Assembly: GCA_051362555.1 (NCBI GenBank)
Contig: CM120647.1
Span: 8,742,001-8,806,000 of the forward strand
From: Lingula anatina
Lineage: Eukaryota > Animalia > Brachiopoda
Length of the DNA: 64,000 bases
Reading direction: 5' to 3'
The position numbers and the translations under genes were made by a program. Shown here in pieces: positions 11,728 to 47,587 of this stretch. Within the stretch, counting starts at the first letter, position 1; each line of letters opens with the position of its first letter. The notes beneath the pieces were generated by a model, which saw only the letters and a program-made list of their open reading frames with translations, made no database searches and had not been told where the DNA came from.

Positions 11728-14700
11728 CTATGCTGCACCCGATTTGTTCTTCTTTCTCATTGGCTGCTCACTCTGGCCTGGAGATGGCTTGGATTCTTCC
11801 TTGGCTTTTTCTTTCTTCAATACCTCAATTTTTGCCCATCGACTTCGGGTTGGGGAGCTTGGCGAGTTTTCAGAATCTTTGAAACATAAAAAAAATCCTT
11901 AATTATCCTTATTTTTTTAACCCTATTATATATCATCTATGTCTATTCATACATGTAAGACTTTTTTCTTATAAGTGATCACATTCTGTGTATCTTTACT
12001 GCATGTGTAAAATCTGTATCATTTAATTTTTTTTTCATTTTATTAAGTTGTGATATTTCTTTAGACTAACTGAATTATTTTTAAAAACATTTTGTATACT
12101 TTGTGTTAAAAATTTATAGTACAGGTTTTTGCTTTGTGTGTGTGTGTGTGTGTGTGTTTGTATGTGTGTGTATGTGTGTGTGTGTATGTGTATGTGTGTG
12201 TGTGTGTGTGTGTGTGCACGTATATATCATAAAATGCTTTAAAAGGGTAAATTCTATTACAATCTCATGTTCAAAAACAAACGGCAAAGACTGTGGTTAA
12301 AAATCTTCAACTATAATACTGTGCTTTACTACTAAAAGAGATAAAAGCATTGGCTAAAAGATCAAAATATATATCTTGCTTCTCTACAAGTTTTAAGTCT
12401 ATTTTTGCATAGTAGAATTTTTTAAAAGTCCATAGGCAGAACAAGCAGTACTTTTAGCTAAGACCAATTTTATCCTGAAATGCCTCCAAACATACTTATG
12501 ATCATAATTAAGTTTTGGAAATAGAATGTAGCCATCTTTAAATTGTTGTAGACCATTTATCAATTAATTGTCAGTTAATAAATGATAATTATTATCCATT
12601 AATAAATTTTAAAATAATTGATATTATATAAATTGGAAATTAAGTAATCAAACTGAAAAAAATATTTGCATTGAATTTTTGAGAGAGACTGCATCCTTCA
12701 TTCAACAGCACATTTTAAGAGAAAAATATATCCTGCATGAAAATAGAAAAAAAATTCCCCAATAAAATAATCAACAATACAGAGAAAAAAAAAAACAAAA
12801 TAAAAAAGGCAAAAACAAACTTAAGGCAAATTATTATTTGGTCCTTTGAAAATTGAGAAAAGGTTTTAGGTGACTTTTTAATGTTGAATACACTATATAT
12901 GCGTAATTTTTTGATGAAATCATAATTCAGTGTAAGACTTGAGGTCCAAAATTTACACAAATCAGGCACTTAAAACAGTTTTTATGCCTTTAAAAATTAG
13001 CTTAAGATAATTATAATCAGGCAATCACATAACAGAACTATCAATCAACAAATCTTTATCAAGGTAAAATCACAGCAAAAACTATGTAGATGCTAATTGG
13101 AAATGATTTATTTAACTATAAAATTTATTCAATTTAGCAAACTTAAATATTCTTATTTCTGGTCAGTGAAAGAGAATAAAAACTTTAATTGTTGTATGTT
13201 AACCATAAATGTGATAGACTCAAAATGTGTTTCTCCTGAAATTCTCATCATTGGCAGCAATTCAAAAATTTCAATGGCAGAAAAAGGAGAAAAAAAGAAC
13301 ATTTAGTCTATAAAACTTAATCTAAGGCCAATTAAACAAAAGAAGCTGAAGTTGAATGTTGGACTTATTTCCACCATCTTTACCAATGAAGGATAAATTG
13401 ATAGCTGACATAAAGTAGTCATCCTTCTAAAACAAAATTGTTTCTGAGCTTTTTGCAAAACAGATCCAATTATCCTTGTTTGGGAGAAAAAATACTGATT
13501 TTTTTCCAGGTTCAATAGACCAAGTTTTGGTCTTAATGTCCAATATTTAACTTCTTTTGTGAAACCATCCCAAAAGATTCATGTAAGCATTTTAATTTAA
13601 GTCTATAGCTAAATCTATATTTGTCAAATGAATCAATTTAGGAAGAAAAAAAAATCAATTGCTACACAAATGTTTCATATTCATGAAGGAAATTCTTAAA
13701 GATAAAGCTGGAATCTGCTCCCACATTAGAACCCAAGCATGTTTATAATGATATATAAGCCTCTACCAATGCAGAAAGTAGCCAAGCAAAGCTTCCGTGC
13801 CATTACCCGATATTTCTTCATAATCCTCATAATCAGAATACAATTCTGACTCATCGTTTTTATCACCCTGGTTACGGAGTTCTAGCAACTGTAATGCTGG
13901 ACTAGCTACAGGTTCTGAGGTGAAATTGACAACCAAAAATTAGGTCAGCTTATTGGGTCAAATGCAAAACAAATCTGGGTCAAGGTCATGGGTCAGGAAA
14001 ATCAAAATAAAATTGGAGAAAATGAATGTCAATTTCATCAGGTTATAGGCCATTTCAAATGAATGGGAAAAGCATTTAAAATGAAAATAAATTCAAAATT
14101 AAAATATGTTTAAATGCATATAGCATACCAGTATTGGTTATTTGCAGTTAGGTTATAAAAGGTCAAGGCCGCTCCAATTAATACTTGCTTGGTAATTTTT
14201 ATGCCCCAAAATAATAAAAGAAAATATGCAAAATATTGAAAAATATACAACAACACAAAAAATAATAATAACTGGATTTGAAAATTAAACAGGGTTAATG
14301 GACAGGGAAGAGAGCAAGAAAAAAATGAAAGATAAATCTGTCATCAAATTTTGTATATACCAAGGTACATGCTTTACCTTTTTTTTTTTTGGGGGGGGGG
14401 GGGGGGGTGGGTAGGGGGGTAATTGTCAGAGGGGAAGGTAGCTGATGGTTAATATTACTTAACATCCACCAGGATTAGGTAATAAAATAATAAAATATAA
14501 AAATTATTATTAATATAAAATGTACTAAACTGCATGCATTGTACCTTATAAAAATCTGTTTCTATATATCATTTGGCTGCAATAAGAACAGAAGGAGGGA
14601 CAAATAACAGATGTTTCAAGAGATACTATGGTAATTCCTCAAAATTAATGTTAATAGTGTAAAATTTATCTAATGTGGTACATTATGTCAAATATCCAAG

Positions 14701-17700
14701 AAATATACCAGTGAATATTTACAAGGCCTTTTTAACACTGAGTGGTATACTTTAGAGTTACAATCTGTACTGGTACACTATGAGAGAGTGACAAGTTACG
14801 GATTCCCACACTTAACGCAGCCAATCAGTCATCTTCCGTCCAAAGAGAAAAAAGTGTCAAACTTGTGAAAATGAGTAAAACCTGTGGCATAACCACATGT
14901 GAGGTTCTTTCAAATGTACCAGTACAGCCTCTATTACTAAAGTATACCGCTTGATGTGAAAATGGCCTCAAGTTCAAATTAGCATGAAAAGGTTCCAGTA
15001 AAATCTAGCCAAATTATATGTATTACCTACATGTCAAATTTTCTACAAATAGGTTTAAATTATAACAAGGCAGCAAAGCTGTCAAATGTACAGACAAAAA
15101 GCAGACAATAACAATGCACAAAACAGGCTACTGTCAATTCTGATGCAAAAGTACATTATGCTTAACTGCAAATTCAACATCAAATTTTAATTATGCTCAA
15201 CAGGTAATACCAATGTAAGTGAAATGTGTAACAAGCGCAAGGCTTCAGGCCCATGGGAGTTTAAGTTCACACTTTGAAAATGCCAGAATGAGAAAAATGA
15301 AAATTTCACATAAAACTGCTTAAATTCAATAATAAATGATAACCCATTTGAGCTGGCTTTCTAATTTGAACTGCATGCCAATCCTACAAATCATACTTGT
15401 AAGTTGAAAATAATAATAAGTAACATAAATTTCTTTTCATAATGTTTGTAGTAGCAGTGCAAAAAGATTTTTGTCAATTTTGATGTAACATTACAAAATA
15501 AATTACAGAATAATTATCACCAATTTTTGATTATTGACTATAAATAGCATGGACATGTAGAAAATTTGATTACCATTTGGCTTCATGTCCATGGGAGCTT
15601 CGAGTCCCACAATGAATATGCCAACATGATAAAAATGAATATTTCACTAAAATGTATAACTTCCAGAAAAAGAAGCCAATTAGACTGCTTTTCCAACTCA
15701 GGCTGCATTTTAGTCCTTTGTTTCTTTTTTGAAAGTTTGACAATCATAAGTAACATGGTTTTCCCATAATGGTCATCATGGCAGCAGCACCAAAAATTGT
15801 GTTTTCTTCTATTTTAATGCAATATTACATAATGCTTAACAGCATAATGACCGTCAATTTTTAATAATAAAATATACGTATCTTGGATTTTCAGAAAATG
15901 TGACTAGCATGGGTCTTCAAGCCCGTGGAGGTTCTAATTAAGTCACACCTTGAAAATGCCAATATGTAAAAAATTAAATTTTCACAAAAAACTGATTAAC
16001 TGCCAAAAAAATTTACCAAATAGTCTGCATTGCCCACTGAAGCTTTATTTAACTCCCATGTTTCTTCCTGTAAGTTTGAGAACAGTAAGTGACATGGTTT
16101 TCCTTAAATGGTCATCATGGGAGCAGTGTCCAAAATAGGGGTGTCTTCAAATTTTGATGCACTATTACATAATGTTTAACAGGATAATTACCATCAATTT
16201 TTAATAATAAAATATTAGTATCATGGATATTCAGAAAATGTTCCTAGCAAAGGTCTTCAGGCCAAAGGAACTTCAAAGTCACACCTTGAAAATGCCAAAA
16301 TGTAGACAAGACAGCACTGTCTTGAAATGTTTTTTTTTTCCATTTTTAACAATTTTTTAACATATAACAAAATTAACAATTTACTGCCATTTATATATGA
16401 TCAACTAAGAAAATTGATGAGATGGGAAAAATATCAATAGAACAGTGTTTAATGTCCAATTTCCTCCATTCTGAGTTTCTGAACATAGTGAATGAATGTA
16501 TCTGACAAACTGCAATGATATGAGTTTATTTCCATTTTTCAAACTCTATTATACAATACATGATAACAAGTTTACCATCATTTTTACATAATCAACTAAC
16601 AATGTTGTAAAGATGCAGGAAATGTCAAACAAACACTTTTACGAATCTTATTAGTTAAATAATGAGACTGTTAACATGCCTAAGAATTGAATCTGAGGAA
16701 ATGTTTAAAAACAGCATAACTTATAAAATAATGGCCCGATTATGCTGATTTTCGAACTTGACCTGCATTTTAGTAAGATTAATTACTCCTGTGAGTTTCA
16801 TGACAACAGGTCTATCGGTTTTCCTTGAAATGTGTTAACAGTGTTGCACATATGCTGAAAAGTGAAAAAAACAGCATAACTACTAAAATAGTGGCCCGAT
16901 CATGCCGATTTTCGAATTTGATCTGCGTTTTAGTAAGATTAATTACTCCTGTGAGTTTCATGACAACAGGCCTATCAGTTTTCCTTGAAATGTGTTAACA
17001 GTGTTGCATATATGCTAAAAAGTGAAAACACAGCATAAATACTACAATAATTGCCCAAACATGCTGATTTTCGAACTTGACCTGCGTTTTATGAATATTC
17101 ATCAGCTCTGTAAATATAAAGCCAAAAAGTAAAACTGTCTTCCACTTATCGTGTTAACGATGAAAGTGCACGGCGACGGCGACGGCGACGGCGACATCGA
17201 CGGCGACAGGGACGGCGACAGAGACGGCGACGGCGACGACAGACGCAGGTGATGGCAATATGTACAGACACATCTGTGTCTGTACATAAAAATGACTACA
17301 AATTCTGTAAGGTGCATTCTGTTAAAATAAATTAGGATAAAATATAAACAATCTGCCAAGATCTTTTACCTTGTAACCAGCTGAAGTCTGTGATAGGCTT
17401 TTTCTGTTTGCGAAGCTCGATCCTGTTTTTTCGACCAGGAGGCTCCCTCTCTGCCTGCTGAAGGTCATGCCGTAAATTATTCTTAGACCACTGTCTCTGA
17501 AATTAATTAAAAAAGAAATAAAGATTCAATATTTATGCTTATTTTATAAACCATGAGATTTATATGCTAGTAATTTTGAATCAAAACTTTCAAGATATTA
17601 TGCTAAGAAAATTCATCAACCAAATTTTATGTACTAAGTAAGGAAAAAGTGACTCAAGGCACCTGTTTCACAAATTCAAGAGCTTTTGCCTGAAAACTGG

Positions 17701-18117
17701 TCTACATTTTTAGGCTTAACTTTACTTCACTTAGATCCAAATTCACAATGATTTTACATAAGGTATGATAACAAGTTTCTAGGTGTGACAATGACATTGT
17801 GTTGGGTGTGACAATGACTTTGCATTAGGTATGATAATTATATGCTTGGTGTGACAGTGACATTGCACTAGGTGTGACAATGACACCGTGTATGGTGTGA
17901 AAATGACATGGCATTTGGTATGATTATATCATACTAGGTGTGACAATGACATTGTGCTGGTTTGTCAGTGACGTTGTGCTACGTGTCTGTGACGTTGTGC
18001 TAAGTGAGAGAACGACACTGTGACAAGTCACTATACATACATTAACAACTTTCCCGCCCTCCTTGCCCTGTTGATCCTGCATAAGCTCACTTAGGGAAGA
18101 CTCAATGGAATGTAAAA
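11728..18117 (-). CDS. C-terminal tail exons (27-30) after the MH2 domain
   Basis: Exons 18117-18041, 17496-17370, 13914-13807 and 11876-11728 are each open in the phase set by the previous exon and end ...KKNKSGAA*. Confidence 0.75.
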
Positions 18118-19020
18118 CTGGAACAAGAGAGACAGGATAAAGGTACAAAAATATATTTCAAATTTTAAAAAAATCATCATTATGCATGACATTATAATAT
18201 TGCCTTAGAAGATTGGTCTGAAAAAATATGGACTTAAAGATATTTCTTTTTTATGAATTGTGACATCTTGGACACAATAATTACATATGAAATATTGCAA
18301 TAATATTTAGAATTATAAAAAGTGCTTTAGACAGGATATTTCTATAGGGTCTTTGTAGTAGGAAAAAAGGTGTGTTGATAGTGGACATCTATCATCTGAA
18401 TAAAATTATTTAAAAAGTGATGAATGTTATTTTCATGCCAATGATTTCCCCCTCCATGCCTTACAATAAACTCAACATACCATGCTCATCATCTAGAGCG
18501 TTAAGTGCTACATAATTAATAATGATGATCCAACAGGGCGTGTCCATGTCATCTAATGTGTTACGGACAAAACTTAAGGCCACAATGCAGTTTGTCCGTA
18601 ACCGCTCCAAGTTTGGGTGTCTGTTACGTAGTTCTAAAGCTATAAGGCTTTTGAATTCTCCCATGTCAAATACCTGAAATAATAACATGAAATACAAAAT
18701 TAAAGTAATATATGACATGATATTAAGCAATTTCCACTTACAGCTGCTTTCTAATGATTTTTCTCAATATCTAAGTATCTATGTTTGAAAATTCACTTTT
18801 CACTTCTAGTGAAACTCATCAAGACAAGTTCATTTACACACACATATTAGATATGATGATTACACATAATAATATAAAATTATAATAATCAATGATCTTA
18901 AAGGAATAAGTTTTTGGGTAAGCAAATGCACTTCTGAAGAAGTGCATGGTTTTTACACATATCATTATACATATTATATACATCATTATACATACACATA
19001 TCATTCTTTTTCTTTACTTA

Positions 19021-19058
<38 letters not shown>

Positions 19059-22000
19059 CTGCAATCAAGTGCCCTCTTCATGAGGTTAGAACCAATTTTT
19101 GGACATTTTACCTTAATGGTCTTCTCTGCTGGCAGTCTGCCCATGTTTCTGATGACGTCTGCCGATACGCTACAGCTGCTGGGGTCATTGTAACCCTTGA
19201 CGATGACATCATTTTTACCCAATCGGATGGCCCAGATATTTCCCTCTTTGTCACGTTTTATCAAAACACCCTGGAATATCATAGAATGAATATTTTCCCC
19301 CAATCAGATGTCGCACTAAACATCAGTATCTTTTACTTTCTTTAAAAAATATTCAGTCAAACATGTCAGTGTCAGTGTTTGAGAGCACAAAATTTATGAT
19401 TATATTTCAAATTCTTTCTTACACAAAAATTGCACACAAATATGTTAAGTTATAGTATGGCACATCACATTCATCCAGAAAGAGCTGATCAAAAACGAAA
19501 TCAAATATTTTAAAAATGTCCTTTGATTCTAGATGCTGCCTTTCTGCTTTCACGAACAATCACGTCCCATATCAGTTCTATTATTTAAAACCAACATTTT
19601 CAGAATTGTGAATGAAGACAACAATCATTCATTAAATAATACATCCAACCTGATTCTGACTTACACAGATAACATATGGTGACAGCATACCCTGAGATTC
19701 AGGGGTTACAAGAAACCTCAATTTATCAAAGGCAAGTAGCTGCGCGCCAAATTACTGGAAATGGCAGAGAAATGCTGATAAAAGAGAAATTTCAGAAACC
19801 TCAGAACTTGGGGTTTTAATGAAAATGGCAGAGAAATGCTGGTAAAAGAGAAATTCCAGAAATCTCAGAACTCAGGGTTGTAATGAAAATAGCAGAGAAA
19901 TGCTGATAACAGAGGAGTGATTCCAGAAACTTTTGAAACTCAGGGTGCCTCAAAGTGACTCAGTGAATTCCAGGAATTTTGTTCGAATTCTTAGAAATTT
20001 ATTCTACATGTGTGACCAGTATAGACTTACCTTTCCTATGTGCTCTCGAACTTTGGCAGTCTTATCATCTCGGAATGGGTTCTCAAACACAGCCAGGCCC
20101 AACCTGAATATTAAAATTTATTAATCATTTTATATGATAAAAATTAAATGATTTTACTGGAATAAGCTTTTCAGTAAGAAAATGCATCTCTGAAGCAGTG
20201 TATTGTTTTTAAACTTAATTGTGAAACTATGAGCCATTTTGAATGATTTCCATTCTGAGAATTCCCCTGTGACGAGGGTAATTATCAATGCATGGGTGAA
20301 AGTTTTCAGTATAATGTCTGATTTCAGGATTTTCAGTCTTCATTTTGGTTGTTTTTTTTTCATATGGTCTAAATGTGATGAGAAATTGCAAGCTACATTT
20401 TTAGTAAATCCATAAAAAGCATTCTTAATATAAAATATGCACATGCATCTGCACTTTGAAATTATTTATATGAATGACTGGTAAATACTAGGCCCATGAT
20501 ATCAACAATTCATTAAAGACACATGATTTATTATTCATCAGCAATGAAAAGCAAATCAGGCAAACCTTGTTAAACAAAAGAAGGATGTTTTATACACTAC
20601 ATTGTATATTCATAGCCAGTTTGCTGTACAATTATTTGAAAAGGTCTCCTTCAACACCTGCACGGTCTATAAAATAAGACCCTGGACTTACTTCTGTCCG
20701 TCGTACTCATGATCCGAGCCATCCACCGTAAACTGGGGCTCCCTGACGTAGAATTTTGCGATCCCTTGCTCTCTTTCCATGTAGACAAGCTTGCACCATA
20801 TATCTGGCTCGAGTGAGGATCGCTTCTGTAGGGAATCTTCAACTATTTGCTACATTCAAGTAAAATAAACACAATTTAACTAGATAGCAATCAAGATTTG
20901 CATGACAAGCAGGTTTTGCTTTCCTGGCTTATAACAGAATATACTTCTGAATCGTCAAAATACTTCTATTTGCTTATCACCAATTATTTATATTTTGTAT
21001 ATTGCCAGATCACGTATTCAGTTAGGCCACATCTAACTTTGCAATAGTACCAAACAAAAATCAGACTCATATCATTTAAATCAGTTACATACGTATGTAG
21101 CAAGAAAGAACAATTTTAAGGGATGCTACTATGAGATCTATGAGAGTGGCAAATTATTAATTTACGTAAATAAAATTTCGTTCTCATTATTTTTACAATG
21201 TCTTACCTGGTACAAAACATCTTTGTCAACTTTCCGTGACAATGGCCGTCTGTAATGACCAGCATCGCTGACAGCAAATTCTGAAGGTGCTTTTACTGAA
21301 GACTTCACACTGGGATACATATTTCTGAAAATGCAGGTAAAAAAAGTTCAGTACCAGGTCTTATTCAACCTACTTTAAAATACTACAGATTTTGAGGGGA
21401 TCTTCACTGAAGACTGTTGAACAGACATGCCCTGCTACATGTTTTGAAAAATTCAAAGGTCACAGAAACTACTGTATAAGATTTCATTCAGTTTATATGA
21501 AAAATAACACCAACTGTGAAGGTGACCTCGATGATTATTTAAGCTTGAATAATATGTTTTTAAAACGAAACTGCTGTATGAGTTTTCAGTCGATTTATAT
21601 AAATATGGTACTTTAATTAAGGTGCCTTAAATTGCACCTAAATAGATATGCAATATTTTAAAAAAATATGATTTTATACTTGAATATATACTTCTGAAAA
21701 AAAATGATTGGAATTTAAACTATCTTGGAATAATGTTTCTGAAATAAAACTACTGCATCAGGTTGCCCTCAACGCATCTATCATATACTCCAAATCTTGA
21801 AGGTGTTTTTAGTGAAGTCTTTAACTTGTTTGGTTGGCTGTTCGTTTTCTTATTACCCAAAATACTGACCATACCTTTTTTTTGCATAAGATTCAACACA
21901 ATCATCTATGAAAATACACAAAAAATACATCCAGTTTTTCTTTCTTACACCCACCAATTCAGTTTAAATTCAAAACAGTGCAAATTCACCATTTTTTTTT

Positions 22001-25000
22001 CATGTGTTTGTACCTATTTTAAGATGTTCCCTACGCCTATATCACCCTACGCCTATTTTCACCCACAATGCTGAACAGATAACCCCACCTCACCTAAATA
22101 CATACAGATTTTCTTATCTCATAGGAAGTCATACCATGCAAAAACCTCATTTAAAATTATAAACTTCAGCCTATCCAAGATGATTCCCATTTAAGTCTAT
22201 ATTTCTAGTATTTTCTATTTTTAAATAGAAATTAAAATTGTGTTACATGACAATCAAGCTGCTTGATTTCAGTAGACTCATACAAATTTGTCTTACAAAG
22301 TAACATCCAGCTTTCCAATGTGTAAAAAAAGTCTGTTTTTTAAAAACAATTAAATAAAACAGTAAAATTATGAGACATCAAACAAAGCATGTCTCTCTAA
22401 TGTAGGTTGTCTGTGTTACTTTTCAGAGTCCCATGCTTTTTATGACTTTCAAATAAAATGGTCACTTATAATAAGCCAAAATGAAAGGCTAAGCAACCTT
22501 TTTTAAACTTTTTTTTGTGTATTCTAGCTACCTAATATAAGATATCACTTTTTAAATCCACTTTTTTGAAATAGTACTGAAAATATATTTTCACTGTGAG
22601 TACTATACTATATAAAAGCAGAAAAGTTTACCAATATCAAATCATGCGCAGTGTTTGCTAAGTGCCCAATTTAGGTCATACATTGTACCGTTTGTCGCCA
22701 TGCAGTCTTGATGATAAAGCCAGACTACGTGACCCATTCATAATGCCCTGTACATGTTACATAAAGGCAGAAATGCATCGACCAATCTAAAAAAATGACA
22801 AATCTAGCAGCTTTAAAATAGATGCTTTATATTGTAGACTGACCTCAATATTGCAACTAAATCCATTAAGAGTGTCCAATTAAAACTAACCAACTCCAAA
22901 AATAAAATTGCAAAAAAAAAAATAAATAAATAAATAAAATAATAATAATAATAATAATAATAAAATAATAATAATAATAATAATAATCCAATATATATGT
23001 ATCCTATCATTGGCATTACCTTTACAGACAGCAACAAACTGGACCCTACAGGCTACTCTATAATACCACAGTGTGCCGGAATGTACACTATAGCTAATAA
23101 GTCCCCGGTCACTTTAATAGCACACGCTGTCTACATCAGACGCGCTAATGCGCACGTCCCCGACAGTGTTAATGATAGGGGGATTACGATGGACAGCGCA
23201 TGTTGCTCACAGCAGTAGGCACTGCCGCCGAAGTTAAACCGGTAATTAAGTCTTTAACTTGACTAAACATGTTTTGCTTTGTAACTTGCGTCCTTCAGTC
23301 TTGCTGTTGCGGAAGCGCCGGCGGGACATATCTCCACCTTGCCGATATTTATCCCGACTCTCGACTTTAAAAGTATTATTGGTTTTGATTTTATCAAAGT
23401 CTTATTATATCAGAAAACCTGCATATTTTCATACGTTAAGAGAATTATAGAAACTGTAGAAAAAGCTACTCGTACATCAGGGACACGCTCGGCTGTCACC
23501 TTGATTGGATAGTAAACGGTTGTCGTAAAATCGCTAAATGATATTAAAACCCGGTGCATAAACTTGAAAACCACCTAGGACAACCTTAGACTGCCACATT
23601 AATCTAATACAACGCAAAAATAAACTATAACAAGTGGTTAAAGCCTTCAAACCAAATGTCGTAAAGTCCCCATATACCTCCATAGAGACAATAAAATAGA
23701 AGAAGCTTGTGAAACAAGAAAAATCCAGTTCCAACATAATAATCGAAATAAAATACTGCCGGGCATCGGAGCGGCCTAAAACTTGGCACGCTTACCGCTA
23801 ATACTGCAGGCTACATCATCCCGTCGCTCGTTTGTAAATTCCGTGCATGGCATACGCACAATCAAACCGTATATCCAAATTCCACCTCTGATGTTTGAAT
23901 TGGTCCTCTCTAACCTACCATTACGAAAAAGAAGCCATGCCATTGGACAATGCGACCTCTTCGGTTACGTCATTTCCTGAATTGGATTGTAGAGAGGACC
24001 AATTCAAACATCAGAGGTGGAATTTGGATATACGGTTTGATTGTGCGTATGCCATGCACGGAATTTACAAACGAGCGACGGGATGATGTAGCCTGCAGTA
24101 TTAGCGGTAAGCGTGCCAAGTTTTAGGCCGCTCCGATGCCCGGCAGTATTTTATTTCGATTATTATGTTGGAACTGGATTTTTCTTGTTTCACAAGCTTC
24201 TTCTATTTTATTGTCTCTATGGAGGTATATGGGGACTTTACGACATTCGGTTTGAAGGCTTTAACCACTTGTTATAGTTTATTTTTGCGTTGTATTGGAT
24301 TAATGTGGCAGTCTAAGGTTGTCCTAGGTGGTTTTCAAGTTTATGCACCGGGTTTTAATATCATTTAGCGATTTTACGACAACCGTTTACTATCCAATCA
24401 AGGTGACAGCTGAGCGTGATCAGGGATAAAAAACAACACCTTGCAGCACTATTACCTATTATTCATCACCAGAAGTTACTGTTTCACTTTTTTCTCCCAA
24501 ATTACAAAGTCTGATGACAACTGAAAGCCTTTAGCCATACCTCAGGGCAGTGGGAGATAGTCTGGATTTGATTAAATGTAATAAAAGTATATTTTGAAGA
24601 ATTTTCCTAGCCTTCGGCAATTTCCGCAAAGCTTCGGCATGCGCGGCAATACAGAGCTGTCGATGTATGTAATCGTGAACAATAGAATTGGTGGAACAAC
24701 GGTTAACGTCGTTGAGTCGTCTGCAACCTACCCGACGGGAGTTCGTGTCCGTGTCTGTACTTTTGAAGATTTTGAAATTGTCATTATTATAAATATCGAT
24801 GAATATATAAAACAGTCGTGGCTAATTGTTTTTGCAACGGAAAGCACAGTAGGAAGGTGTGTTGTTATTGTTAAAGTTATTATTACTCGGGACATAAATT
24901 AGTATGCTAATCTCTTATAATGGTATAATGATTGATACGATGGGTATCAAATAGTTTTCCTTTGATATAAACAACAAAAGAGCGGCCTTCCAAATATCTT

Positions 25001-28000
25001 TGCTGAATGTTTATAACGTAGGTACTATTATGCGCAAAAATATTGATACATGACGCAAACGACATTTACTAATTTTGGTAATATCAATTTTAATTAAAAT
25101 TAAATTTAATTGAAATTAAAATTAAAATTTGTCTAAACGTGCATATTACCATTCACCTTGTTTAAAGGGTTCGCAACACTACATTCTAATACATTTTGCC
25201 AATTTTCATGTTTGCTAGTTTATTTTGATTTGAGAGAAAGCGAGAGAAGACCCTCTACTAGGGCCGCAAATTAATTATGAGTATTTTTCTTCAGTGCAAG
25301 AGACTGTGTAATGAAAAATCAATCTGTAACTCTGGTATAGGGTGGCCTTGTCTGTGTAATAATATACAAGTAGGGGCAGGGGTACAGTTTTGTAGTACAA
25401 ATAGTCATTTTATACATCTTATTGACCTCATCGTCGGGTCATTGTTTACAATAGCGCTTTGTCGCTGTGCGTACCTTTTTGCATTTGAGTTAGACTCAGT
25501 CAGTAACAGCTGGTGATTTTGTCTTTTTTGCGTTTCATTGACAATATTTTGGCCACCTAAGTAGGGAAATGTGGCTCTTTGTTTTGAAATGACATTTCCA
25601 TTGTTCCTTTGAACATGCAAAAGTCAACACACTTACGTCAGCATACTTACTTTGTAATACCAACCAGGGGAAGAAACAAAAGCCTCATAAGGTGTCGTCA
25701 TTCACACTGTAAAAGGTGTTAATTTCATGCTTCTATTGTTTGCCCATGAATCATTATGACAAATTTGTAGGGTTGCCAGATCACTGGCGCTTCATTCAAT
25801 TCTCTATATCTGCCCTGCAGCCTGGGATGAGTGATACTTGACTGACCTTTGTTTACATCTGGAGATTTTCTTTATAATTCGATCAGTGTGCATAAATTAT
25901 GATATTTTCCATCAGGAAAAATACGTGATAATGTTACAATTCTTATTTAACGGATACATAATTACAAAAATTAATTCCTGATTTAATACCCCCTATTTCA
26001 GCGCCTATTCCTGGCTGCGTTAATTATGGGGGGTTGGAAAGTAATCCGTTAGAACGCAGGAGTGATGATTGCTACCCTTACCAACGGTGCATCACCGATC
26101 AACTAATCTCAGCCACCTGAAGCAGAATCACCAACAAAAGACAAATTGGACTACATCTGCCTTCTTGTTGAGACATCTTATGTAAAAAAGGCGATAACGG
26201 TCAAAACATACGTGCTTCGTGGTTTATTAAATGTTCATCGTATTTTTTCGTTCGTTATTCTTATGAGTTAAGCAGCTTCACCTCCGTGACACCCTTTTTA
26301 TTTATTTAAACCATTGTTAGATAAACCATGGGTTTCACTCCAGATTTCACGATCGAGCAGCTGATCATGAGGAGAGTGTAGCATGCTATAGTAAACTACC
26401 CCAAATATATATATAACACCTCCAGGGTTTCACGATCGAGCAAGTGATCATGAGGAGAGAGTGTAGCAGAGAACTTCATTAATGGTCATCATAATTGGTG
26501 GTTGCCTTGGGAAAATGAGTTACATGATTACATAATACAGATACATAATAACATAAGATTAATACTAAAATTTTCCCTGATACAAAAACCCCTATTTGAG
26601 CGCTTATTCCTGACTGCGTTAATTACGGGTGATTAGAAAGTAATCTATGAGGACGCAGGAGCGATGATCGCTACTCTTACCAACGGTAAATCACCGATTT
26701 ACTTGACTCCGCTACTTCGAGCAAAATCACACACCACCAAAAGACAAATTAGACCACGTTCGTCCTCTTATTAAAACAAAGAATGTAAAAATGTGATGTC
26801 GGTCAAAGAAGAGGCCTAGACTACGTGCTTCATGGTTTATTAGATAGGCCTATTCATTGGATTTTTTTATTTCATTATTATAGCTTCACCTCGCGAGACC
26901 CTTTTTATATATTTAAAACACAGCACCCCACTGGTTTCGCGATCATGAAGAAAGGGAGTGTAGCAAAGAACCTCATTAATGGTCGTAATAATAGGTGGTT
27001 GCATTGTAGGCCTAACCTTGTTCATTTTAGTCGACAGACTAAGCTAGAAGAAAGAAAATATCATTATCGCCTCTCTTTACTTAGGAACAATAAGGATGGC
27101 TAGTGGCAGCATTTATAAGTTCTTTTATTTAGAAACTTTCCGATCCTTTGTCTGGGACTGCGTCCGAGAAACGGCGATAACGACAGAGACGTCCTCGAAC
27201 ATTTTGGACTCAGTGCAAATAAAAAAAAAATCCGTTAAGAAGTAGCCTTTAAATGTCCTGGCAAATAACTTTGCGATGGCTCAGAGAGTTCTAGAATGAA
27301 TGACAAGCAACGACATTAGGGTTAATAATAGACTAAAAACTATCAGAGTGTAGGCCTGTCTTACTTCATTTCTAAGGCCATCTTGTGATACGAGTCATGC
27401 TACACTACAAAAGAGGGGGTAGCAGTGGATGATTTAATACAGGGATACCATCGATAGTATATCAATAGAAAATCGCAATCCTCAAATGTTTTTTAATTCA
27501 TTAAATATAAACGGTCCTTTCTCGTACAATGGGTCTGGTATAGTTGTATTGGCCTATCAGTTGGAAACACGTGGTTCGTCTACAATTGCAAATGGCGGAG
27601 GTGCCGTGGTAGTTATTGTCGTAAAATTAGCTGGATACGGTGCACGTGAGAAATTTATTCATTAAATTTAGTTTTCGAGCGTCAGCTTAATCTGGTAAAA
27701 TGCGAGACGAAAAAAATGATAGATAGAGCCTTATGACCCACTGAAGAATGATGCCGAATAATACATCAACGACGTAGTTTATCGGCAGATAAACGTGTTT
27801 CCATTCTCAGCTGACTGAGGAAAGGTTTGAGAGAGCATTTAAAGAAGAGGCGGTCGAACCAATAGTGAGTAGGAAGTGTGCTGCAATCAAGACGAACAAT
27901 ACCGATCATAAGTGGACAGCTAATAACCCCTAATTAACCCCGGGTTACGCGCTGCTGTGTTGACTCCTTGCTGGGAAGGGGTAGCGGCCTCCTACTGCTG

Positions 28001-29721: not shown

Positions 29722-29772
<51 letters not shown>

Positions 29773-31994: not shown

Positions 31995-32058
<64 letters not shown>

Positions 32059-32755
32059 TTCACAATCACTAACACTCTCACAAACATACACATAGACACA
32101 CTCACATACTTTCTTTTCTAATAACATATTATGGCAATAATTACCCAATTTGTAACTAACATGTGATTTACACCTCCATCATGCCAACCAATGACTGATA
32201 AGAAGCCCTAACACCTCTAAATTCCCTCTGTCCCTGCCAACAGTCACTAACTCTCACTCAAGAGGTATTAGAACTAATTGTACTACAGTATTACTCAAAT
32301 ATAAACACAGACACAATAATTCCGGGTATGATAATTCCAGTCTTACCAAATCTACAGCCAAAGTTAGCACATTCTGTCATGAAGGTAATATGAAATTTTC
32401 TAGTTGCGTCAACTTGGCCTCCTTGGGCTTTATTCAAGATAAGATGAGATATGCCGACTGTTTGGACTTTAGTGAGCACATAGAGTTTGCAATGGTTCTT
32501 TTGTATATACATTTTTTATAACTGTAAACATATTAAGTTAGTTGAATTATTATTGGTTTGGGTTAAATTTGACTTTTTAAATAAATTACTAAGACCAAAG
32601 AATCTCAAATGTTCTTTTCAACAGAGCTCTCCTTTAATTTTATAACTTATGGGTAATTATACAATCTATAAGAATTATTATCTAACTGAATATTTCCCTA
32701 TGCTTTGGAATGCAATTTCAGTTCGTCTAGTTTCACATCTGATCAAAATTCAGTC

Positions 32756-32791
<36 letters not shown>

Positions 32792-34742
32792 CAGTCAGCC
32801 AGTCTTTTAAATAAATATTGACATTTCAAAGTCCCTGATAAGATAACACTGAATTTGGAGACTGTTACAAATGCTTCTTAGACTCTTCTTACGAGTAGAA
32901 TATAATACTGGTAGACACTGGGGTTTCGAAATTAAATCAAAATCAATGGTATTAATTAGTAATAATTCAATCTTTAAAGAAATATGTTGCAAAATGTGCA
33001 TATATGAAATACTGAATAAAAATTAAAATATGTAAACTACAGAAAGTTACTAAATAAAAGGTAAGGCAGACCTGCATTAAGTAATGGTACAAAATTTACC
33101 ACAAAATTACCTGACTGAAAAAGTAACATGAATCTTTTTTTTTTTTATTTCAGTATAATTTTACTTTTTTTTTAAATTTCACTATCTATTATTATTTGCA
33201 TAAAATGCTACACAGAGGCAAAACACCTGCCCCTACTAAAAACGTGTCCTATAAGCACATGTCTATTATATTGAGTAATATGAATCTTCTGTAATCCTCT
33301 TTATAGTGAGTCAGTGCTTCAGAGAACTTATGAATGAAAACACATTTACTGAATGCTCAACAAATTATCTTAAAATATTATTAGCATACTGAATATCATG
33401 AACTATCGGTCCTTACATGATTAATATGATCTGTCATTCTCTGGGAGAAGGGGATTTCAAAATGCTGTATCTTCATACCTTTATACAGTAGCATTATGTC
33501 TTTTACCATGCACTGCAAGTATGTCCTTGTCAACAAATTGAATACAGTTCAATCATTTCAAAAGGATTACAGGCCTGTAGCCAGCAAATTTCAAAGGGGG
33601 CTTCTTTTTCCAAAAAAAAAGCAGACCTTTTAACCAATTCACCCGACAAAGCATGAAAAATGGCATACATATATGACTGAGATCAAATTTTAATTCATGG
33701 TGGTCATCTTTTCTAGAACAAAGGGCAGTTTTTTCATCCCAACCCTCACCTTAACCCCCCCCCCCCCCCCCACCTACAGCCCCAGGTCGTAGTTACCGTA
33801 GTTACCAAATATCTTGTCAGGTGATCTGTCATACTTAAACATGAATCACTTCGTTGTGCTGTGGTTAATTCTTGGAAGAGTTTGCTGTCACCAATTATTT
33901 TTGACAGGTGCAATATGGACTAGAGCAAGCTCAGGTAGAAACACCCTGGTAGCAAGAATAAATATACAACAGGGGGCCATTTCATAAAATATCTGATGTA
34001 TTGATCAAAACTTGGTCTAAAATATAAGAACAAATTCCTAGTCTTTTTTGCCATAAAAACATCATATTTTGTCCAGTAAAATGAATCATTGTGCTCGTTT
34101 TATAACAAGAAACAAATCGAGGCTTTTTCAGACTAATAACCACTCTTTTTTCAGCTCAAGACAGGTCATTTATCCAAATTTGTGGAGGTGAAAATTTCTT
34201 TGTCCAAGTCAAGACCCACTTTCTTTTGAAAGTTCTTTTTTGAAACAGGCCCGAGAGGAGCAACCTTATGTAAAAATTGTGTTTTTAGATATTAATCACA
34301 CATCACTACACCTATAGAGTTGTACTATGGATGGTTTACACACATATAACTGGAGGATTACCTGTGCGATCCAACTGCACAGTATAATTACCAATCATAA
34401 ACATTTTTCATTTTTACCAATTTATACCTAAATTTATCAACCATTTTCTACAAGAATGAACCAAATATGAGAAACCAAAGTTTTAACATATTGCACTTTT
34501 TGGTAAAAATCAAGTTTTCTCCCAATAACAAAGAAAACAGACTAATGTTTTAACTTGGATCGCCCTTGGTTTCACAGTCTGTGTGTGTAAATGCGTCAGA
34601 CAGGTGTCCCACCATATTTACTTCCTGGTTGATAAAGAGGCTGTCAAACACTTCAAAGGTCAGTGCACAAGCACGTTTTTATATTAGCTTTGCAGGTAAA
34701 TTTGTGCAGGGCATTAAAGTGCACAGACACAAACACTTTGTC

Positions 34743-34785
<43 letters not shown>

Positions 34786-35195
34786 TCTGCATTTCTTCAG
34801 TTGTACCATTATTTTATCTTCTCTTTTATAAAAAAAATTAACCATAAAACAGATAAATGAATGAATGAATGAATGAATGAATAAATGAAGGAATGAATGG
34901 ATCAATAAATAAATAAATAAAAGATAAAAAATTAGTACCTTTCTTTCCTGTCTTATCTTGTCGTGTTCTTGTTGAAGCTGTACAAGATGATACGTCCTCT
35001 CCGCCTGCTGGGTGAGAATAGCCACAAAGGCACTGAGGAGGGACCTCTCTTTCACGAGCTTTTCTTTCTTGGCGCGGAACTTCTTTCTGGTGAGAAACCC
35101 GCGGACATAACTCTGCACGCGAAGAACTTTGGCCTGTATGATGTCCATGTGGAGATTCAGCTGTTCTGTGTGCCAGTATTTCAAGAATACCTGGC

Positions 35196-35241
<46 letters not shown>

Positions 35242-35465
35242 TATGAAATCATAAAACAATTCTAACTGATATACAATAACTGTTAAAACGTATAAATTGC
35301 TAAAAAGAAAAAAAATGTAAATACACAAAAAGTATATAAACTTTTTTGTCTAGTTCATTTATCTTACAAAATTAAAACCTGGATTGATAATTATAAATCT
35401 AAACTCATGTGCTATTCTACTATGGTATTTTCTTACTACTAATATTGCCCGTTCATGCATACATT

Positions 35466-35500
<35 letters not shown>

Positions 35501-41888: not shown

Positions 41889-44499
41889 CATTAAAAAACA
41901 GTCTTTTTAACAATAACTGACTGAATGGGGCAAGCGCTATTGCACTATTATATGCAACTGCTAAACATGTTAGCTTCAAAATGCTAACTTTGCCATGCAA
42001 TTTTCCTAAGTAACAACTGATGTGTTTTATTCATCTACCGATTGTTTGGTAATACTATATGAATGCTTTGATTGCACTATTTAAGATATTTGATGCAAGT
42101 TCTTACTGTGTCTGATTTATAAGGTGATTTTTGTTGACTGTGTCTGATGTGACTGCCAATTGTGTTGGGTGTGACTGCCAATTGTGTTGGGTGTGACTGT
42201 TGATTGTGTTGGGTATGACTACTGATTGTGCTAGATGTGACTGCCAATTGTGTTGGGTGTGACTTCTGATTGTGTTGGGTATGACTGATTGCGTTAGCTG
42301 TGACAACACATTGCTACAGGTGATCTCCCCTTACCTATGTCTAGTATAACTTCATCTACAATGTATACACCATCAGTATCTGGGTCTTGGGCAAATTGTA
42401 TATCTCCCAAGTGAAGGACTGCAGCAAGTAGAGCAAACACCATGTCTATGTCCTGTAATAAAAAGTGGGATTTTTAAAACTAAGAATTAGTAAAAACATG
42501 AACATGTTTATCATTTTCTTTTCAAATTACCATGTACGTTGCTCTGGTCATTCTTTCAAAATAGCCAAAAACGTTGTCAATGTTTTTATCAGTGTGTGAT
42601 ATATGGTAAATATATACATATGAAAGGCCAAAATTTTCTACTTATCCACTTCTGAGAATTAAATTTTCAAACTTATAAAATTACAGTTTTTATTTTGTTA
42701 AGTTGTTTTACTTAAATGCTACAAAAATGTGATTTAACAAGATTTGTTTATATATAAATATGTGAAAACTTGATGCATTAAAATGTCTGTTGATAATGCT
42801 GAAAATTATGATGCCAAAGATTACACTATAATAAATAACATTCAGTTCAAAAAATTATTTAGAAATTTAAGTGATGTTATTGCTGTAGATTTTTTTGCAT
42901 ATAGAGATGTTTTGATTGAAAAGGATATCATAACTATTGCCTTGTTTTGTAATAATTATTATTTCATGCAAAGGATGAAAACCATGTGCAACAACAATTA
43001 GTAAAGTCTAACCAAATTCATGCTAAAATATCAACAATGAATTAAAGAAATATTATGTTCCATTCTTTATTAAGAAACTGAAAGATGTAAAGTTGGGGTG
43101 CATAATTAACTTGAAAATGTCAAATCAAAGAAATGTGTTAGCCTTATTATAAAACAACATTGCAGGTGGTTCTTGCACATTTAAATGAACACAATATTTG
43201 CTTTATTCAGTAAATAAAAAGGTGAATGGATGAAATATAATTGAAGTGTTAACCTTTTTGGTTTGGCTAGGTTTGACCTGGAAACAAACAACTTATCAAT
43301 CAACTGATCTGCGGGAATTAATGTACATCAGGTGACAATAAAATTGTGATACTGAGAATAGTGTAACCTTGACACTGAAAGTCATGTGACAATGTGACCT
43401 TGACACAAGATGTCATGTGATTATCTGACCTTGACATTGGATGCTTTGGCACTGTCCCAATCAATGTAACGATACTTGTCCAAGATAGTGTTCTTAATTC
43501 AATATAGACATTAAAATTAAACAATTAACAGAATCTATTGACAATTTTATTTCACTAGGTTTTTTTACATATTTGAAATCTCTTAAAATGGAAAATCAGC
43601 TGTATGCTATGCAATTATATAAATATTTTGAACAAATCAAAGACCTAAAATCTGCTTCTGCTTAGCTTTATTATCATATCACCAAGAACTTTACTTACTG
43701 AGGAAGTATAATATTCCTTTGGGTTGCATATGAGGAAAGTATCATAAATTGCAGTAAATTTCAACGTTACCCAAACATTAAGATTTACATTATATTAGAA
43801 AGGAAGGATGAGTACTTTTTTAAAAATTAAATTCACAATGTGTTAGGTGCAACAACAATAACACAATCACTTACATTACAAGCACACAGCATAATTAGTT
43901 ACACAATACCACATATATATGTGACAAACTAATCTAAAGGACATTCAGAAACCCTAAACAGCTACATGGCTTAAAGCTTTCACTTTTTAGCCTAACAGCC
44001 CTTCAAAAACACCAACAACTAAGAAGTCTTGCTTTGATGGCAACTTATTTTTTATCCTTATGCCCCTTTTTCCAGATTTGACAAAATTGTGGATATGTTA
44101 AATGTAATTCATAAGAGACTATTTCTTGCATATGGACATATGGGTTTATTTAAGCTTTTCCTGTTCAGGTCCTTTCTATATAATGCTACAAATAGCAATA
44201 CAAATCTCCTACTTGAAGCCAATTGTGTTAGTTGTGACAAAAGCACAATCTTAGCACAACCTACCTCAGATTGGAAGCCCACAAGTTGCATGATAAGTTT
44301 GAGGTGTTCCAGCATATCCACACAGTACTTGTAGTGTGCATCGCTCCAGTAGAGGGCACTGCCGTCAACAGAAGACAAAATTCTGAAGTAGATGTGGTTG
44401 AAATATGTATTAGCAAGTGGTAAATGTGGTTTTATGTTTAGATATGGAGTATATGTGGTTGTCAATGATTAATATTGTAAAAAATATGGGTTCAGTGAC

Positions 44500-47500: not shown

Positions 47501-47587
47501 GCGTATCCTCAGCTCAGCCAATAGGATTCTCTCATCCAATTCATTGAGGCTGGCAAGGTCATCGATCAAACCTGTCCCAGGATTCAT
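11728..47587 (-). CDS. Unconventional myosin (class-III-like motor without kinase domain) fused to an Expansion/Rebuf-like MH2 domain, about 1445 aa, 30 coding exons
   Basis: Exons in transcript order, all GT-AG and phase-compatible, 4338 nt in total: 47587-47480, 47075-47010, 46649-46511, 46275-46187, 45701-45587, 45078-44931, 44382-44265, 42452-42335, 40004-39933, 39483-39345, 39059-38834, 38652-38485, 38179-38034, 37510-37400, 36994-36928, 36727-36672, 36201-36052, 35619-35508, 35190-34939, 31307-30679, 30091-29945, 21324-21207, 20849-20692, 20103-20031, 19270-19112, 18673-18481, 18117-18041, 17496-17370, 13914-13807, 11876-11728 (TAG). The joint 29945/21324 is phase 2 to phase 2 (VDK-R-NMYP). 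Confidence 0.82.
12136..12216. repeat. (TG)n microsatellite
   Basis: Direct observation. Confidence 0.9.
14725..14967. mobile_element. Old MITE with ~30-bp imperfect TIRs (Harbinger-like GGCC ends)
   Basis: GGCCTTTTTAACACTGAGTGGTATACTTTAG ... CTAAAGTATACCGCTTGATGTGAAAATGGCC. The TSD is not preserved. Confidence 0.55.
15240..16302. repeat. Diverged tandem repeat, period ~340 bp, just over 3 units
   Basis: The motif GG(T)CTTCA.GCCC..GG...AGTCACACCTTGAAAATGCC recurs at about 15241, 15579, 15912 and 16252. Confidence 0.7.
16303..17292 (+). mobile_element. Helentron-associated/pearl-like element with internal ~160-bp satellite, (GACGGC)n tract and 3' hairpin
   Basis: Near-identical ~160-bp units start at 16711, 16871 and 17030. 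A (GACGGC)n tract spans about 17170-17240. A perfect 13-bp stem ATGTACAGACACA-TC-TGTGTCTGTACAT (17260-17287) is followed by an A run. The left boundary is approximate. Confidence 0.7.
17780..18030. repeat. Minisatellite, ~23-bp unit (GGTGTGACAATGACATTG core)
   Basis: Direct observation of repeated units. Confidence 0.8.
18481..21324 (-). CDS. Expansion/Rebuf-like atypical Smad MH2 domain exons (22-26)
   Basis: Spliced product [90 protein letters not shown]...[57 protein letters not shown]. It has the MH2 hallmarks (WC, TVDG, HIGKGV, FD, SFV, TPCWI) with features recalled for Exp/Reb. Confidence 0.88.
19758..19950. repeat. Tandem repeat, ~62-bp unit x3
   Basis: GAAATGGCAGAGAAATGCTGATAAAAGAGAAATT...CAGAAAC repeated. 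Confidence 0.8.
23484..24418. mobile_element. Foldback non-autonomous DNA transposon: 429-bp TIRs, 77-bp spacer, 8-bp TSD (hAT/P/MULE-like)
   Basis: Arms 23484-23912 and 23990-24418 are reverse complements with about 3 mismatches by eye. The termini are CA...TG. The TSD ATCAGGGA is at 23476-23483 and 24419-24426. Confidence 0.92.
25951..27003. repeat. Diverged tandem duplication, two units ~590 bp apart
   Basis: CCCCTATTT.AGCGC.TATTCCTG.CTGCGTTAATTA...ACGCAGGAG.GATGAT.GCTAC.CTTACCAACGGT occurs at about 25990-26090 and 26589-26688, and the similarity continues through both units. Confidence 0.75.
29724..29768. repeat. (GA)n microsatellite
   Basis: Direct observation. Confidence 0.9.
29945..35190 (-). 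CDS. Converter/IQ neck, charged helix and low-complexity linker exons (19-21) of the myosin
   Basis: Exon 35190-34939 encodes VFLKYWH and the IQ motif [14 protein letters not shown]. Exon 31307-30679 encodes an E/K/R/Q-rich helix followed by an H/N/Q/Y-rich linker. Exon 30091-29945 is open in the expected phase. Confidence 0.9.
31980..32055. repeat. Compound (CT)n(CA)n microsatellite
   Basis: Direct observation. Confidence 0.9.
35508..47587 (-). CDS. Myosin motor domain exons (1-18) of the myosin-MH2 gene
   Basis: The motifs [34 protein letters not shown]-loop [18 protein letters not shown], switch [43 protein letters not shown], switch [37 protein letters not shown] and FVRCIKPN...QLRYTGVLE are all intact. 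Confidence 0.96.
41813..41886. repeat. (GT)n microsatellite
   Basis: Direct observation. Confidence 0.9.
42135..42320. repeat. Minisatellite, ~22-bp unit (TGTGTTGGGTGTGACTGCCAAT)
   Basis: Direct observation of repeated units. Confidence 0.8.
45372..45517. mobile_element. Palindromic Harbinger-like MITE with CTG (CWG) TSD
   Basis: Near-perfect inverted arms of ~55 bp, GGCTCTGTATCTCGAAAGGTTCGCTATGTTGCGCACGTG... and ...CACGTGCGCAACATAGCGAACCTTTCGAGATACGGAGCC. CTG flanks both sides (45369-45371, 45518-45520). Confidence 0.8.

What the first reader, a model, noticed from the sequence alone, without database searches (positions are those of the whole stretch)
11728..47587. Myosin motor fused to an Expansion/Rebuf-type MH2 domain: candidate motor-adaptor for chitin secretion
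Seen in sequence: 30 exons splice without a frameshift into motor, IQ, charged helix, linker, MH2 and tail. The 8.6-kb intron between the myosin part and the MH2 part has matching phase 2 ends, and I found no alternative terminal myosin exon inside it. Established knowledge: Drosophila Expansion and Rebuf are MH2-only Smad-like proteins required with the chitin synthase Kkv for chitin deposition, and molluscan chitin synthases (e.g. Atrina rigida CS1) carry an N-terminal myosin head. Inference: this protein joins a motor resembling the chitin-synthase-linked type to the domain that insects use to control chitin synthase. That points to an actin-based system that positions or delivers chitin synthase at apical microvilli in shell, radula or chaeta formation. 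Myosin-MH2 architectures may already be listed in myosin domain surveys. The Exp/Reb identity and the chitin link are what appear unexplored.
Basis: partly seen in the sequence, partly recalled or inferred. Interest (0 to 1): 0.92.

Follow-up and report, generated by a model that had tools for sequence, protein, structure and literature searches.

The report
Myosin-borne ancestor of Expansion chitin factors
This brachiopod gene joins a myosin motor to the same kind of protein domain that fruit flies need to export chitin; the fusion is already listed in myosin surveys, but the insect factors Expansion/Rebuf are likely its motor-less descendants, and a role in chitin secretion in this animal is untested.

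Summary
The gene is real. Thirty GT-AG exons give 1445 aa, 10 substitutions from RefSeq Lingula anatina 'myosin-IIIb X2'. RNA reads span the 8.6-kb intron (11 reads in one run). The motor motifs are intact. The MH2 is Expansion-type: PDB 4R9P E 3e-45 against 1e-12 for Smads; model TM 0.87 against 0.70 or less; N-alpha helix and short L3 loop.

The architecture is published: class-80 myosins with lophotrochozoan orphans, and choanoflagellate and sponge myosin-MH2. The same fusion occurs in molluscs, a sea star and cnidarians. Rooted on cnidarian and two unnamed myosins, the MH2 tree puts motor-less ecdysozoan Expansion proteins inside this family (no Smad outgroup). Sampled gastropod motors are degenerate. 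No paper linking the two was found; this scan noted the kinship earlier in two annelid genomes.

The chitin role is not shown: fly Rebuf does not co-precipitate or co-localise with chitin synthase, and CM2 is missing. Best reading: an actin motor placing an Expansion-type adaptor at the apical membrane, acting on chitin export indirectly if at all.

The parts
11728..47587 (-). Whole coding region, 30 exons, 1445 aa (myosin head, IQ, charged helix, linker, N-alpha-MH2, tail)
   Evidence: splicing, match to P0001; RefSeq XP_013418100.1
35179..47587 (-). Myosin motor, exons 1-19 (aa 1-720): 47587-47480, 47075-47010, 46649-46511, 46275-46187, 45701-45587, 45078-44931, 44382-44265, 42452-42335, 40004-39933, 39483-39345, 39059-38834, 38652-38485, 38179-38034, 37510-37400, 36994-36928, 36727-36672, 36201-36052, 35619-35508, start of 35190-34939. 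P-loop, switch I and switch II intact; long basic loop 2; no N-terminal kinase (in-frame stop 14 codons upstream of the ATG)
43254..43277 (-).
35074..35127 (-). Single IQ motif (aa 738-755), in exon 19
   Evidence: 17-19.9 bits, just under the Pfam cut-off; conserved in relatives
31110..34953 (-). Charged helix (about aa 796-866; end of exon 19 and start of exon 20), 51% E/K/R; single alpha-helix or weak coiled coil, not resolved
29945..31109 (-). Low-complexity linker: rest of exon 20 (to 30679) and exon 21 (30091-29945); no match in 162 other proteins held
21325..29944 (-). Intron 21, 8620 nt, phase 2; spliced out in RNA reads
28518..29168 (-). Weak sense-strand RNA depth inside intron 21, with candidate donors after 28965, 28800 and 28722: possible alternative first exon of a motor-less isoform (not shown)
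21207..21324 (-). Exon 22: in-frame ATG at 21320 (Met1061, 385 aa to the end) and first half of the N-alpha helix
18481..21221 (-). N-alpha-MH2 domain: N-alpha helix aa 1094-1109, MH2 core aa 1115-1281; exons 22-26 (20849-20692, 20103-20031, 19270-19112, 18673-18481)
11728..18117 (-). C-terminal tail, exons 27-30 (18117-18041, 17496-17370, 13914-13807, 11876-11728), with three short tryptophan-centred motifs shared with mollusc and sea-star myosin-MH2 proteins; no CM2, no SxS end, no membrane span

Best explanation
This is a class-80-type myosin, with an intact motor, one IQ lever and an Expansion-type N-alpha-MH2 domain on one transcript, that likely walks on or grips apical actin and so places the MH2 adaptor at the apical membrane, where it would recruit partner proteins that organise that membrane and would affect chitin export only indirectly. 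Shown: gene, splice, domains, catalytic motifs, fold class. Inferred: motor activity, plus-end direction and apical or microvillar location (from the myosin III/XVI/36 neighbourhood, partly recalled); the adaptor role (from Drosophila Exp/Reb). Evolution (inferred): the fusion predates bilaterians and was inherited vertically; ecdysozoans lost the motor, leaving Expansion/Rebuf, and in arthropods the CM2 motif likely took over apical targeting.
For: Junction reads and RefSeq model. P-loop, switch I, switch II and SH1 region intact; motor 55% identical to the sea-star protein. MH2 closest to Expansion by sequence (E 3e-45 vs 1e-12) and by model (pLDDT 95.6; TM 0.87, rmsd 1.7 A vs TM 0.64-0.70 for R-Smads and Smad4). 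15 of the 150 best MH2 relatives carry a myosin head or its remnant; named ones are bivalve, gastropods, sea star, two cnidarians. MH2 tree of 33 rows rooted on 2 cnidarian and 2 unnamed myosins: bilaterians 98/96, protostomes 82/77, motor-less group 95/83 with Priapulus first, then the Trichuris group, then arthropods; the motor tree is compatible. In flies the isolated N-alpha-MH2 does not localise, needs apical localisation to act, and is proposed to recruit other proteins (PMC9894549 passages); here CM2 is absent and a motor is present.
Against: No localisation, ATPase, tissue or knock-down data exist for any member in what I read. The tree has no Smad outgroup: the root is assumed, the protostome node is under the star threshold, and a clade of sea-star plus lophotrochozoan rows without Expansion is not rejected (p-AU 0.29). 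Only 4 of the 18 motor-less rows are named; the other 14 were grouped by tree position, so the group statistic is partly circular. Sampled gastropod motors have lost switch I/II residues and loop 2, so motility is not needed in every member. CM2 is also missing from the Trichuris-group rows, which have no motor either, so 'CM2 replaced the motor' cannot hold for all ecdysozoans. The motor class was not tested against class 3, 16, 28 or 36 sequences.
Confidence: 0.55

Rival explanations
1. Direct motor-adaptor for chitin synthase: the MH2 binds chitin synthase or its vesicles and the motor carries it to microvillar tips in shell, chaeta or radula cells.
For: MH2 is the domain that Drosophila needs for chitin translocation; the motor is reported as sister to or mixed with class-36 chitin-synthase myosins; Lingula has 31 chitin synthase genes, most without their own myosin head (PMC4595640).
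Against: No co-IP, complementary localisation, and Exp/Reb absent from Kkv interactor screens in flies. Three of the four ancestral lophotrochozoan chitin synthases already carry a motor (PMC3942024). The family occurs in a sea star; that echinoderms lack chitin synthase is recalled and I could not confirm it (the deuterostome enzymes named are chordate only). Motors are degenerate in the sampled gastropods.
Confidence: 0.13
2. Chitin-independent actin-protrusion or signalling myosin: like myosin III or XVI, it works in microvilli, sensory processes or receptor-kinase signalling, and ecdysozoans alone co-opted the freed MH2 for chitin export.
For: [quoted passage not shown]
Against: Protostome myosin-MH2 and Expansion share MH2 details that the sea-star and cnidarian rows lack (the Asn and Ala after the PxW motif). 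Choanoflagellates, sponges and cnidarians do have chitin synthases, so an old chitin link is not excluded.
Confidence: 0.27
3. Two neighbouring genes, a myosin and an Expansion-like gene, joined by mis-annotation or rare read-through.
For: The intron is long and holds repeats; in 2 of 4 runs the MH2 exons are about twice as deep as exon 21.
Against: 11 junction reads; depth 0.06 or less next to both intron ends in all 4 runs; 4 of 4 RefSeq isoforms fused; the same fusion in three phyla besides brachiopods.
Confidence: 0.02
4. The MH2 acts in TGF-beta/BMP signalling by binding Smads or receptors.
For: The fold is shared with Smads.
Against: N-alpha helix present, which in Expansion clashes with the trimer interface (PMC4388265); L3 loop six residues shorter than Smad4 and equal to Expansion; no MH1, no SxS end; fly Exp/Reb do not transduce TGF-beta.
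Confidence: 0.03

Closest known systems
Class-80 myosins and the lophotrochozoan orphan MH2 myosins (Kollmar and Muehlhausen 2017, PMC5583752; passages seen)
   Same: Myosin head plus C-terminal MH2; best motor match among the proteins held is the sea star Acanthaster (883 bits, 55% identity)
   Different: Brachiopods are not named in the passages or the species table searched; the paper left the lophotrochozoan members unclassified and does not mention an Expansion link in the passages seen
Choanoflagellate and sponge myosin III-like MH2 proteins (Sebe-Pedros et al. 2014, PMC3942036; passages and section 13)
   Same: Same domain pair; proposed there as the source of the Smad MH2
   Different: Not compared here by sequence; the non-bilaterian rows I hold show no clear N-alpha helix match
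Drosophila Expansion/Rebuf, N-alpha-MH2, PDB 4R9P (PMC4388265, PMC4305360, PMC9894549)
   Same: N-alpha helix, short L3 loop, 37% identity, TM 0.87, no MH1
   Different: Expansion has no motor, carries the MH2 at its N-terminus, and has CM2 and a PxLPPR motif; here the MH2 follows a motor and the tail has three different tryptophan motifs
Class-36 myosin-chitin synthases of lophotrochozoans (Atrina CS1 type)
   Same: Reported as the nearest motor class
   Different: No chitin synthase domain and no membrane span here; motor kinship not re-tested
Myosin III (the RefSeq label)
   Same: Same broad motor group
   Different: No N-terminal kinase; in-frame stop upstream of the ATG

Membership tests
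Class-80 / orphan MH2 myosins | Myosin motor with C-terminal MH2 on one chain | tested here: met
Class-80 / orphan MH2 myosins | Motor groups with ambulacrarian class-80 motors to the exclusion of class 36 | tested here: inconclusive
   Closest held motor is Acanthaster, but no class 3, 16, 28 or 36 motor was in the set; the survey itself found this unresolved
Expansion/Rebuf (N-alpha-MH2) | N-alpha helix before the MH2 core | tested here: met
   aligns with Expansion residues 35-48; helix 12-27 of the model at pLDDT 96-97; rmsd 1.7 A over 205 columns
Expansion/Rebuf (N-alpha-MH2) | Shortened L3 loop | tested here: met
   no gap against 4R9P, six-residue gap against Smad4; short in all 17 rows
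Expansion/Rebuf (N-alpha-MH2) | MH2 at the N-terminus of a motor-less protein | tested here: not met
   MH2 at aa 1094-1281 behind a motor; a motor-less isoform from Met1061 is possible but not shown
Expansion/Rebuf (N-alpha-MH2) | CM2 motif behind the MH2 | tested here: not met
   profile from 29 motor-less relatives: training minimum 35 bits, Lingula best -3.3 bits and upstream of the MH2 (3 of 300 shuffles as high); also absent in 19 other rows of the myosin side and in the Trichuris row
Expansion/Rebuf (N-alpha-MH2) | Required for chitin translocation at the apical membrane | not testable with these tools
   needs knock-down or rescue
Smad | MH1 domain, long L3 loop, C-terminal SxS (R-Smads), trimer interface free | tested here: not met
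Myosin III | N-terminal protein kinase domain | tested here: not met
Class-36 myosin-chitin synthase | Chitin synthase domain and membrane spans | tested here: not met
   (best 19-residue hydropathy 1.66, inside the motor)
Active myosin motor | P-loop, switch I arginine, switch II glutamate, SH1 region, converter, IQ | tested here: met
   sequence only; ATPase not measured

The most novel reading that the evidence does not exclude
Expansion/Rebuf, the factors that open insect chitin synthase for export, are the decapitated tail of an ancient myosin that brachiopods, molluscs, annelids, echinoderms and cnidarians still keep whole. The motor-bearing form is the lophotrochozoan chitin-export factor, carried up the microvilli that template chaetae and shell matrix, and the Lingula locus already makes a motor-less, Expansion-like 385-aa isoform from a promoter inside intron 21, showing how the motor was shed. 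The descent alone I put at about 0.75, the chitin role at about 0.35, the short isoform at about 0.25; the probability given is for descent plus chitin role.
Probability: 0.28. Interest if true: 0.82.

Novelty: new member of a known kind. Interest (0 to 1): 0.55.

Why it matters
How Expansion/Rebuf license chitin export is open: the fly work postulates an unknown 'Factor X' and found no direct binding. If these proteins descend from a myosin tail, their partners are likely cargo at actin protrusions, which narrows the search and links fly cuticle to microvillus-templated chaetae and shells. It also corrects 'restricted to protostomes' for the N-alpha-MH2 domain (a sea-star myosin carries the matching helix region) and shows one ancient myosin tail as the likely source of both Smad and Expansion MH2 domains. 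One cheap test exists: put the Lingula MH2 into exp reb mutant flies. The gene itself is annotated and its architecture catalogued, so the value lies in the connection, not the discovery.

Tried and rejected
No whole genome is held for this window, so Lingula paralogues, a separate motor-less Expansion gene and chitin synthase linkage could not be searched. The run search listed no indexed RNA holder, only 9 raw-read runs of the same species label; 4 of the 9 were laid once; read support for introns 18-20, for exons 1-16 and for the candidate internal first exon stays unseen. Word-index protein searches returned only P0001 (1 of 79 and 1 of 1023 candidates) and one unnamed 85-aa fragment (1 of 19); the last was meant to fetch Smad sequences as outgroup and did not, so the trees have none. 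The Atlas gave only generic MH2 and myosin clusters, none with a chitin synthase family in the rows shown. The 114-row careful tree did not finish; the quick tree was used to pick 33 rows; 47 of 161 matching proteins were dropped as near-copies or incomplete, and three long branches, Aplysia among them, were left out of the 33. A DPYY stretch at aa 873-876 resembles the CM2 core but scores far below true CM2, lies on the wrong side of the MH2 and is absent from relatives: treated as chance. Met1061 is not matched by a methionine at like distance in Patella, Aplysia or Acanthaster, so the short isoform is not family-wide. Three paper searches on chitin synthase in echinoderms gave nothing usable; the supplement of PMC3942024 could not be searched and the main supplement of PMC5583752 was too large to read: both may bear on the taxon claims and on whether a link to Expansion was remarked there. 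The paper on Expansion and receptor-kinase signalling was not found. No complex prediction was run: no chitin synthase sequence was held and I claim no direct binding.
Full report
Observation. The window holds a minus-strand gene of 30 coding exons from 47587 to 11728. All introns are GT-AG and the frame is open for 1445 codons. A search with one MH2 exon returned one protein, 100% identical over the exon: Lingula anatina 'myosin-IIIb isoform X2'. The spliced product differs from it at 10 of 1445 positions. Its cluster has 4 RefSeq isoforms, all with motor and MH2. So the fusion is already in the public annotation, under a wrong class name: there is no kinase domain, and an in-frame stop lies upstream of the ATG.

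The junction. Four RNA runs were laid on 16800-36300. Run X7 shows a joint from 21326 to 29951 in 11 reads; rebuilt, it is the predicted 29945/21324 splice with two synonymous differences. Seven other predicted introns appear in the joint table; 50 rows were not shown. Depth in the bins next to both ends of intron 21 is 0.06 or less in all 4 runs, so there is no terminal exon beside exon 21 and no first exon beside exon 22. Run X1 is stranded and fits minus-strand RNA. Run X4 has almost no reads on the gene, so expression varies between samples; the tissues are not given.

Anatomy. Motor aa 9-720, one IQ (sub-threshold in Pfam, conserved in relatives), a charged helix of about 70 residues, a linker with no match in other proteins held, MH2 aa 1115-1281, and a 150-residue tail. 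P-loop, switch I, switch II and SH1 region are canonical, and loop 2 is long and basic. There is no membrane span.

The MH2 is Expansion-type. Against all PDB sequences the best of 29 matches is 4R9P, Drosophila Expansion, E 3e-45 over query residues 11-208; Smads follow at 1e-12 and match only from residue 23-34 on. An AlphaFold2 model on a 62-row alignment has pLDDT 95.6 and a helix at 12-27. Foldseek ranks 4R9P first (TM 0.87, rmsd 1.7 A, 37% identity), R-Smads and Smad4 at TM 0.64-0.70. The two structural marks named in PMC4388265 (parts 2 and 3 of 6 and passages read), the N-alpha helix and the short L3 loop, are both present. The CM2 motif, located from the deletion primers in PMC9894549 and found in a moth relative, is absent.

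The family. HMMER over 1.84 billion representatives gave 682 matches; the best 150 were listed. Pfam on 47 of them found a myosin head in 14 and MH1 in none; my own motor profile found 15 of 150. Twenty proteins were looked up and 14 could be named. With motor: Sinanodonta, Patella, Haliotis, Batillaria, Aplysia, Acanthaster, Rhopilema, Hydractinia. Without motor in the record: Solemya and Ridgeia (on the myosin side of the tree, possibly incomplete models), Priapulus (partial), Trichuris, Halotydeus, Chilo. The quick tree of 114 rows splits 22 rows holding all 15 motor-bearing ones from 92 motor-less rows. The careful tree of 33 rows, rooted on two cnidarian and two unnamed myosins, gives bilaterians 98/96, protostomes 82/77 and the motor-less group 95/83, branching Priapulus, the Trichuris group, arthropods. 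This follows the species tree and is what motor loss in ecdysozoans predicts. Limits: no Smad outgroup, 4 of 18 motor-less rows named, and the alternative grouping of sea star with lophotrochozoans is not rejected (p-AU 0.29). The motor tree of 11 rows is compatible.

Two further patterns. Motors are intact in Lingula, Acanthaster, Sinanodonta and two unnamed proteins, drifted in the cnidarians, and degenerate in the sampled gastropods, which lack loop 2 and, in Aplysia and Batillaria, switch I/II residues; the library keeps one protein per 50% cluster, so intact gastropod paralogues may be hidden. Bilaterian myosin-MH2 tails share three tryptophan-centred motifs: a profile from 8 non-Lingula tails finds the Lingula tail at E 7e-10 and three more myosin-side proteins, and no motor-less ecdysozoan-side protein under E 0.6, among 145 searched. 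They resemble basic amphipathic calmodulin- or membrane-binding helices (recalled, untested).

What is known. PMC5583752 (passages) defines class-80 myosins with a C-terminal MH2 in Ambulacraria and notes lophotrochozoan orphans of the same architecture that are sister to or mixed with class-36 chitin-synthase myosins. PMC3942036 (passages and section 13) reports myosin-MH2 in Salpingoeca and Oscarella and derives Smads from it. The three Exp/Reb papers contain the word myosin 0 times and describe the family as protostome or ecdysozoan. Library searches: myosin + MH2 domain + chitin synthase gave only the two surveys (likewise); Rebuf + myosin + MH2 gave 0; the 8 papers on Expansion, Rebuf, MH2 and chitin were seen as a listing and three were read in passages. 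Subscription journals and two supplements were out of reach. Two earlier notes of this scan report the same kinship in annelid genomes; my reading was written before I saw them and they are not independent support.

Mechanism. In flies the N-alpha-MH2 is needed for chitin translocation, does not localise alone, does not co-precipitate with Kkv and sits between Kkv patches; the authors propose that it recruits an unknown factor or shapes the membrane (PMC9894549 passages). The simplest model for the Lingula protein is that the motor supplies the apical targeting and the MH2 the recruitment (0.55). Whether chitin export is the output here is open. For: Lingula has 31 chitin synthases, most without a motor (PMC4595640 passages and supplement part 15), and choanoflagellates, sponges and cnidarians have the enzyme (PMC3942024, PMC10216261 passages). 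Against: presence in a sea star, where chitin synthase is recalled as absent but unconfirmed, and motor decay in gastropods. Direct carriage of chitin synthase is the least supported form (0.13); a chitin-independent role stands at 0.27.

A lead. One bin of intron 21 (28518-29168) has low depth in the 3 runs that express the gene, none in X4, and in X1 from the sense direction only (about 436, 651 and 944 aligned bases). Exon 22 has an in-frame ATG that would give 385 aa with the N-alpha helix about 34 residues in, against 27-45 in four motor-less relatives. In X7 and X8 exons 22-23 are about twice as deep as exon 21; in X1 they match exon 20. An internal promoter would explain this; 3' bias and mismatches at the end of exon 21 would too. 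No joint from that bin was among the rows shown.

Verdict. Observation confirmed; interpretation partly supported. A new brachiopod member of a catalogued myosin kind, with a well-supported and apparently unpublished link to Expansion/Rebuf and an untested chitin role. Interest 0.55.

Noticed in passing
window 23484-24418: A 935-bp near-perfect palindrome (94.5% self-complementary) inside intron 21, read deeply from both strands in all 4 RNA runs: likely a foldback or MITE-type repeat.
   Followed up: partly
window 4044-7864, + strand: Convergent neighbour gene: cysteine-rich repeat, threonine-rich stalk, one membrane span and a cytoplasmic tail with repeated LPxYxN tyrosine motifs; looks like a single-pass signalling receptor; only weak Pfam hits.
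   Followed up: partly
window 2014-2973, - strand: Open frames ending in a chromo-like domain (Pfam E 0.006-0.02), like the end of a retrotransposon integrase.
   Followed up: no
window 16800-17300: Highly transcribed dispersed repeat in intron 28, depth in the hundreds in all 4 runs.
   Followed up: no
P0007, P0008, P0014, P0076, P0103, P0155, P0192: Gastropod myosin-MH2 motors have lost loop 2 and, in some, switch I/II residues: candidate pseudo-motors with a kept MH2 and tail.
   Followed up: partly
window 17370-17496 and 11728-11876: Three short tryptophan-centred tail motifs conserved from sea star to molluscs, brachiopod and partly annelid; function unknown.
   Followed up: partly
P0088, P0161, P0097, P0134: Cnidarian and two unnamed myosin-MH2 proteins have the short L3 loop but no clear N-alpha helix match, so the helix may be a bilaterian addition; not folded.
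   Followed up: partly
RNA runs X1, X4, X7, X8 on window 16800-36300: Most laid reads are only 90-99% alike to the window, so the animals under this species label are strongly polymorphic or not all one species.
   Followed up: no
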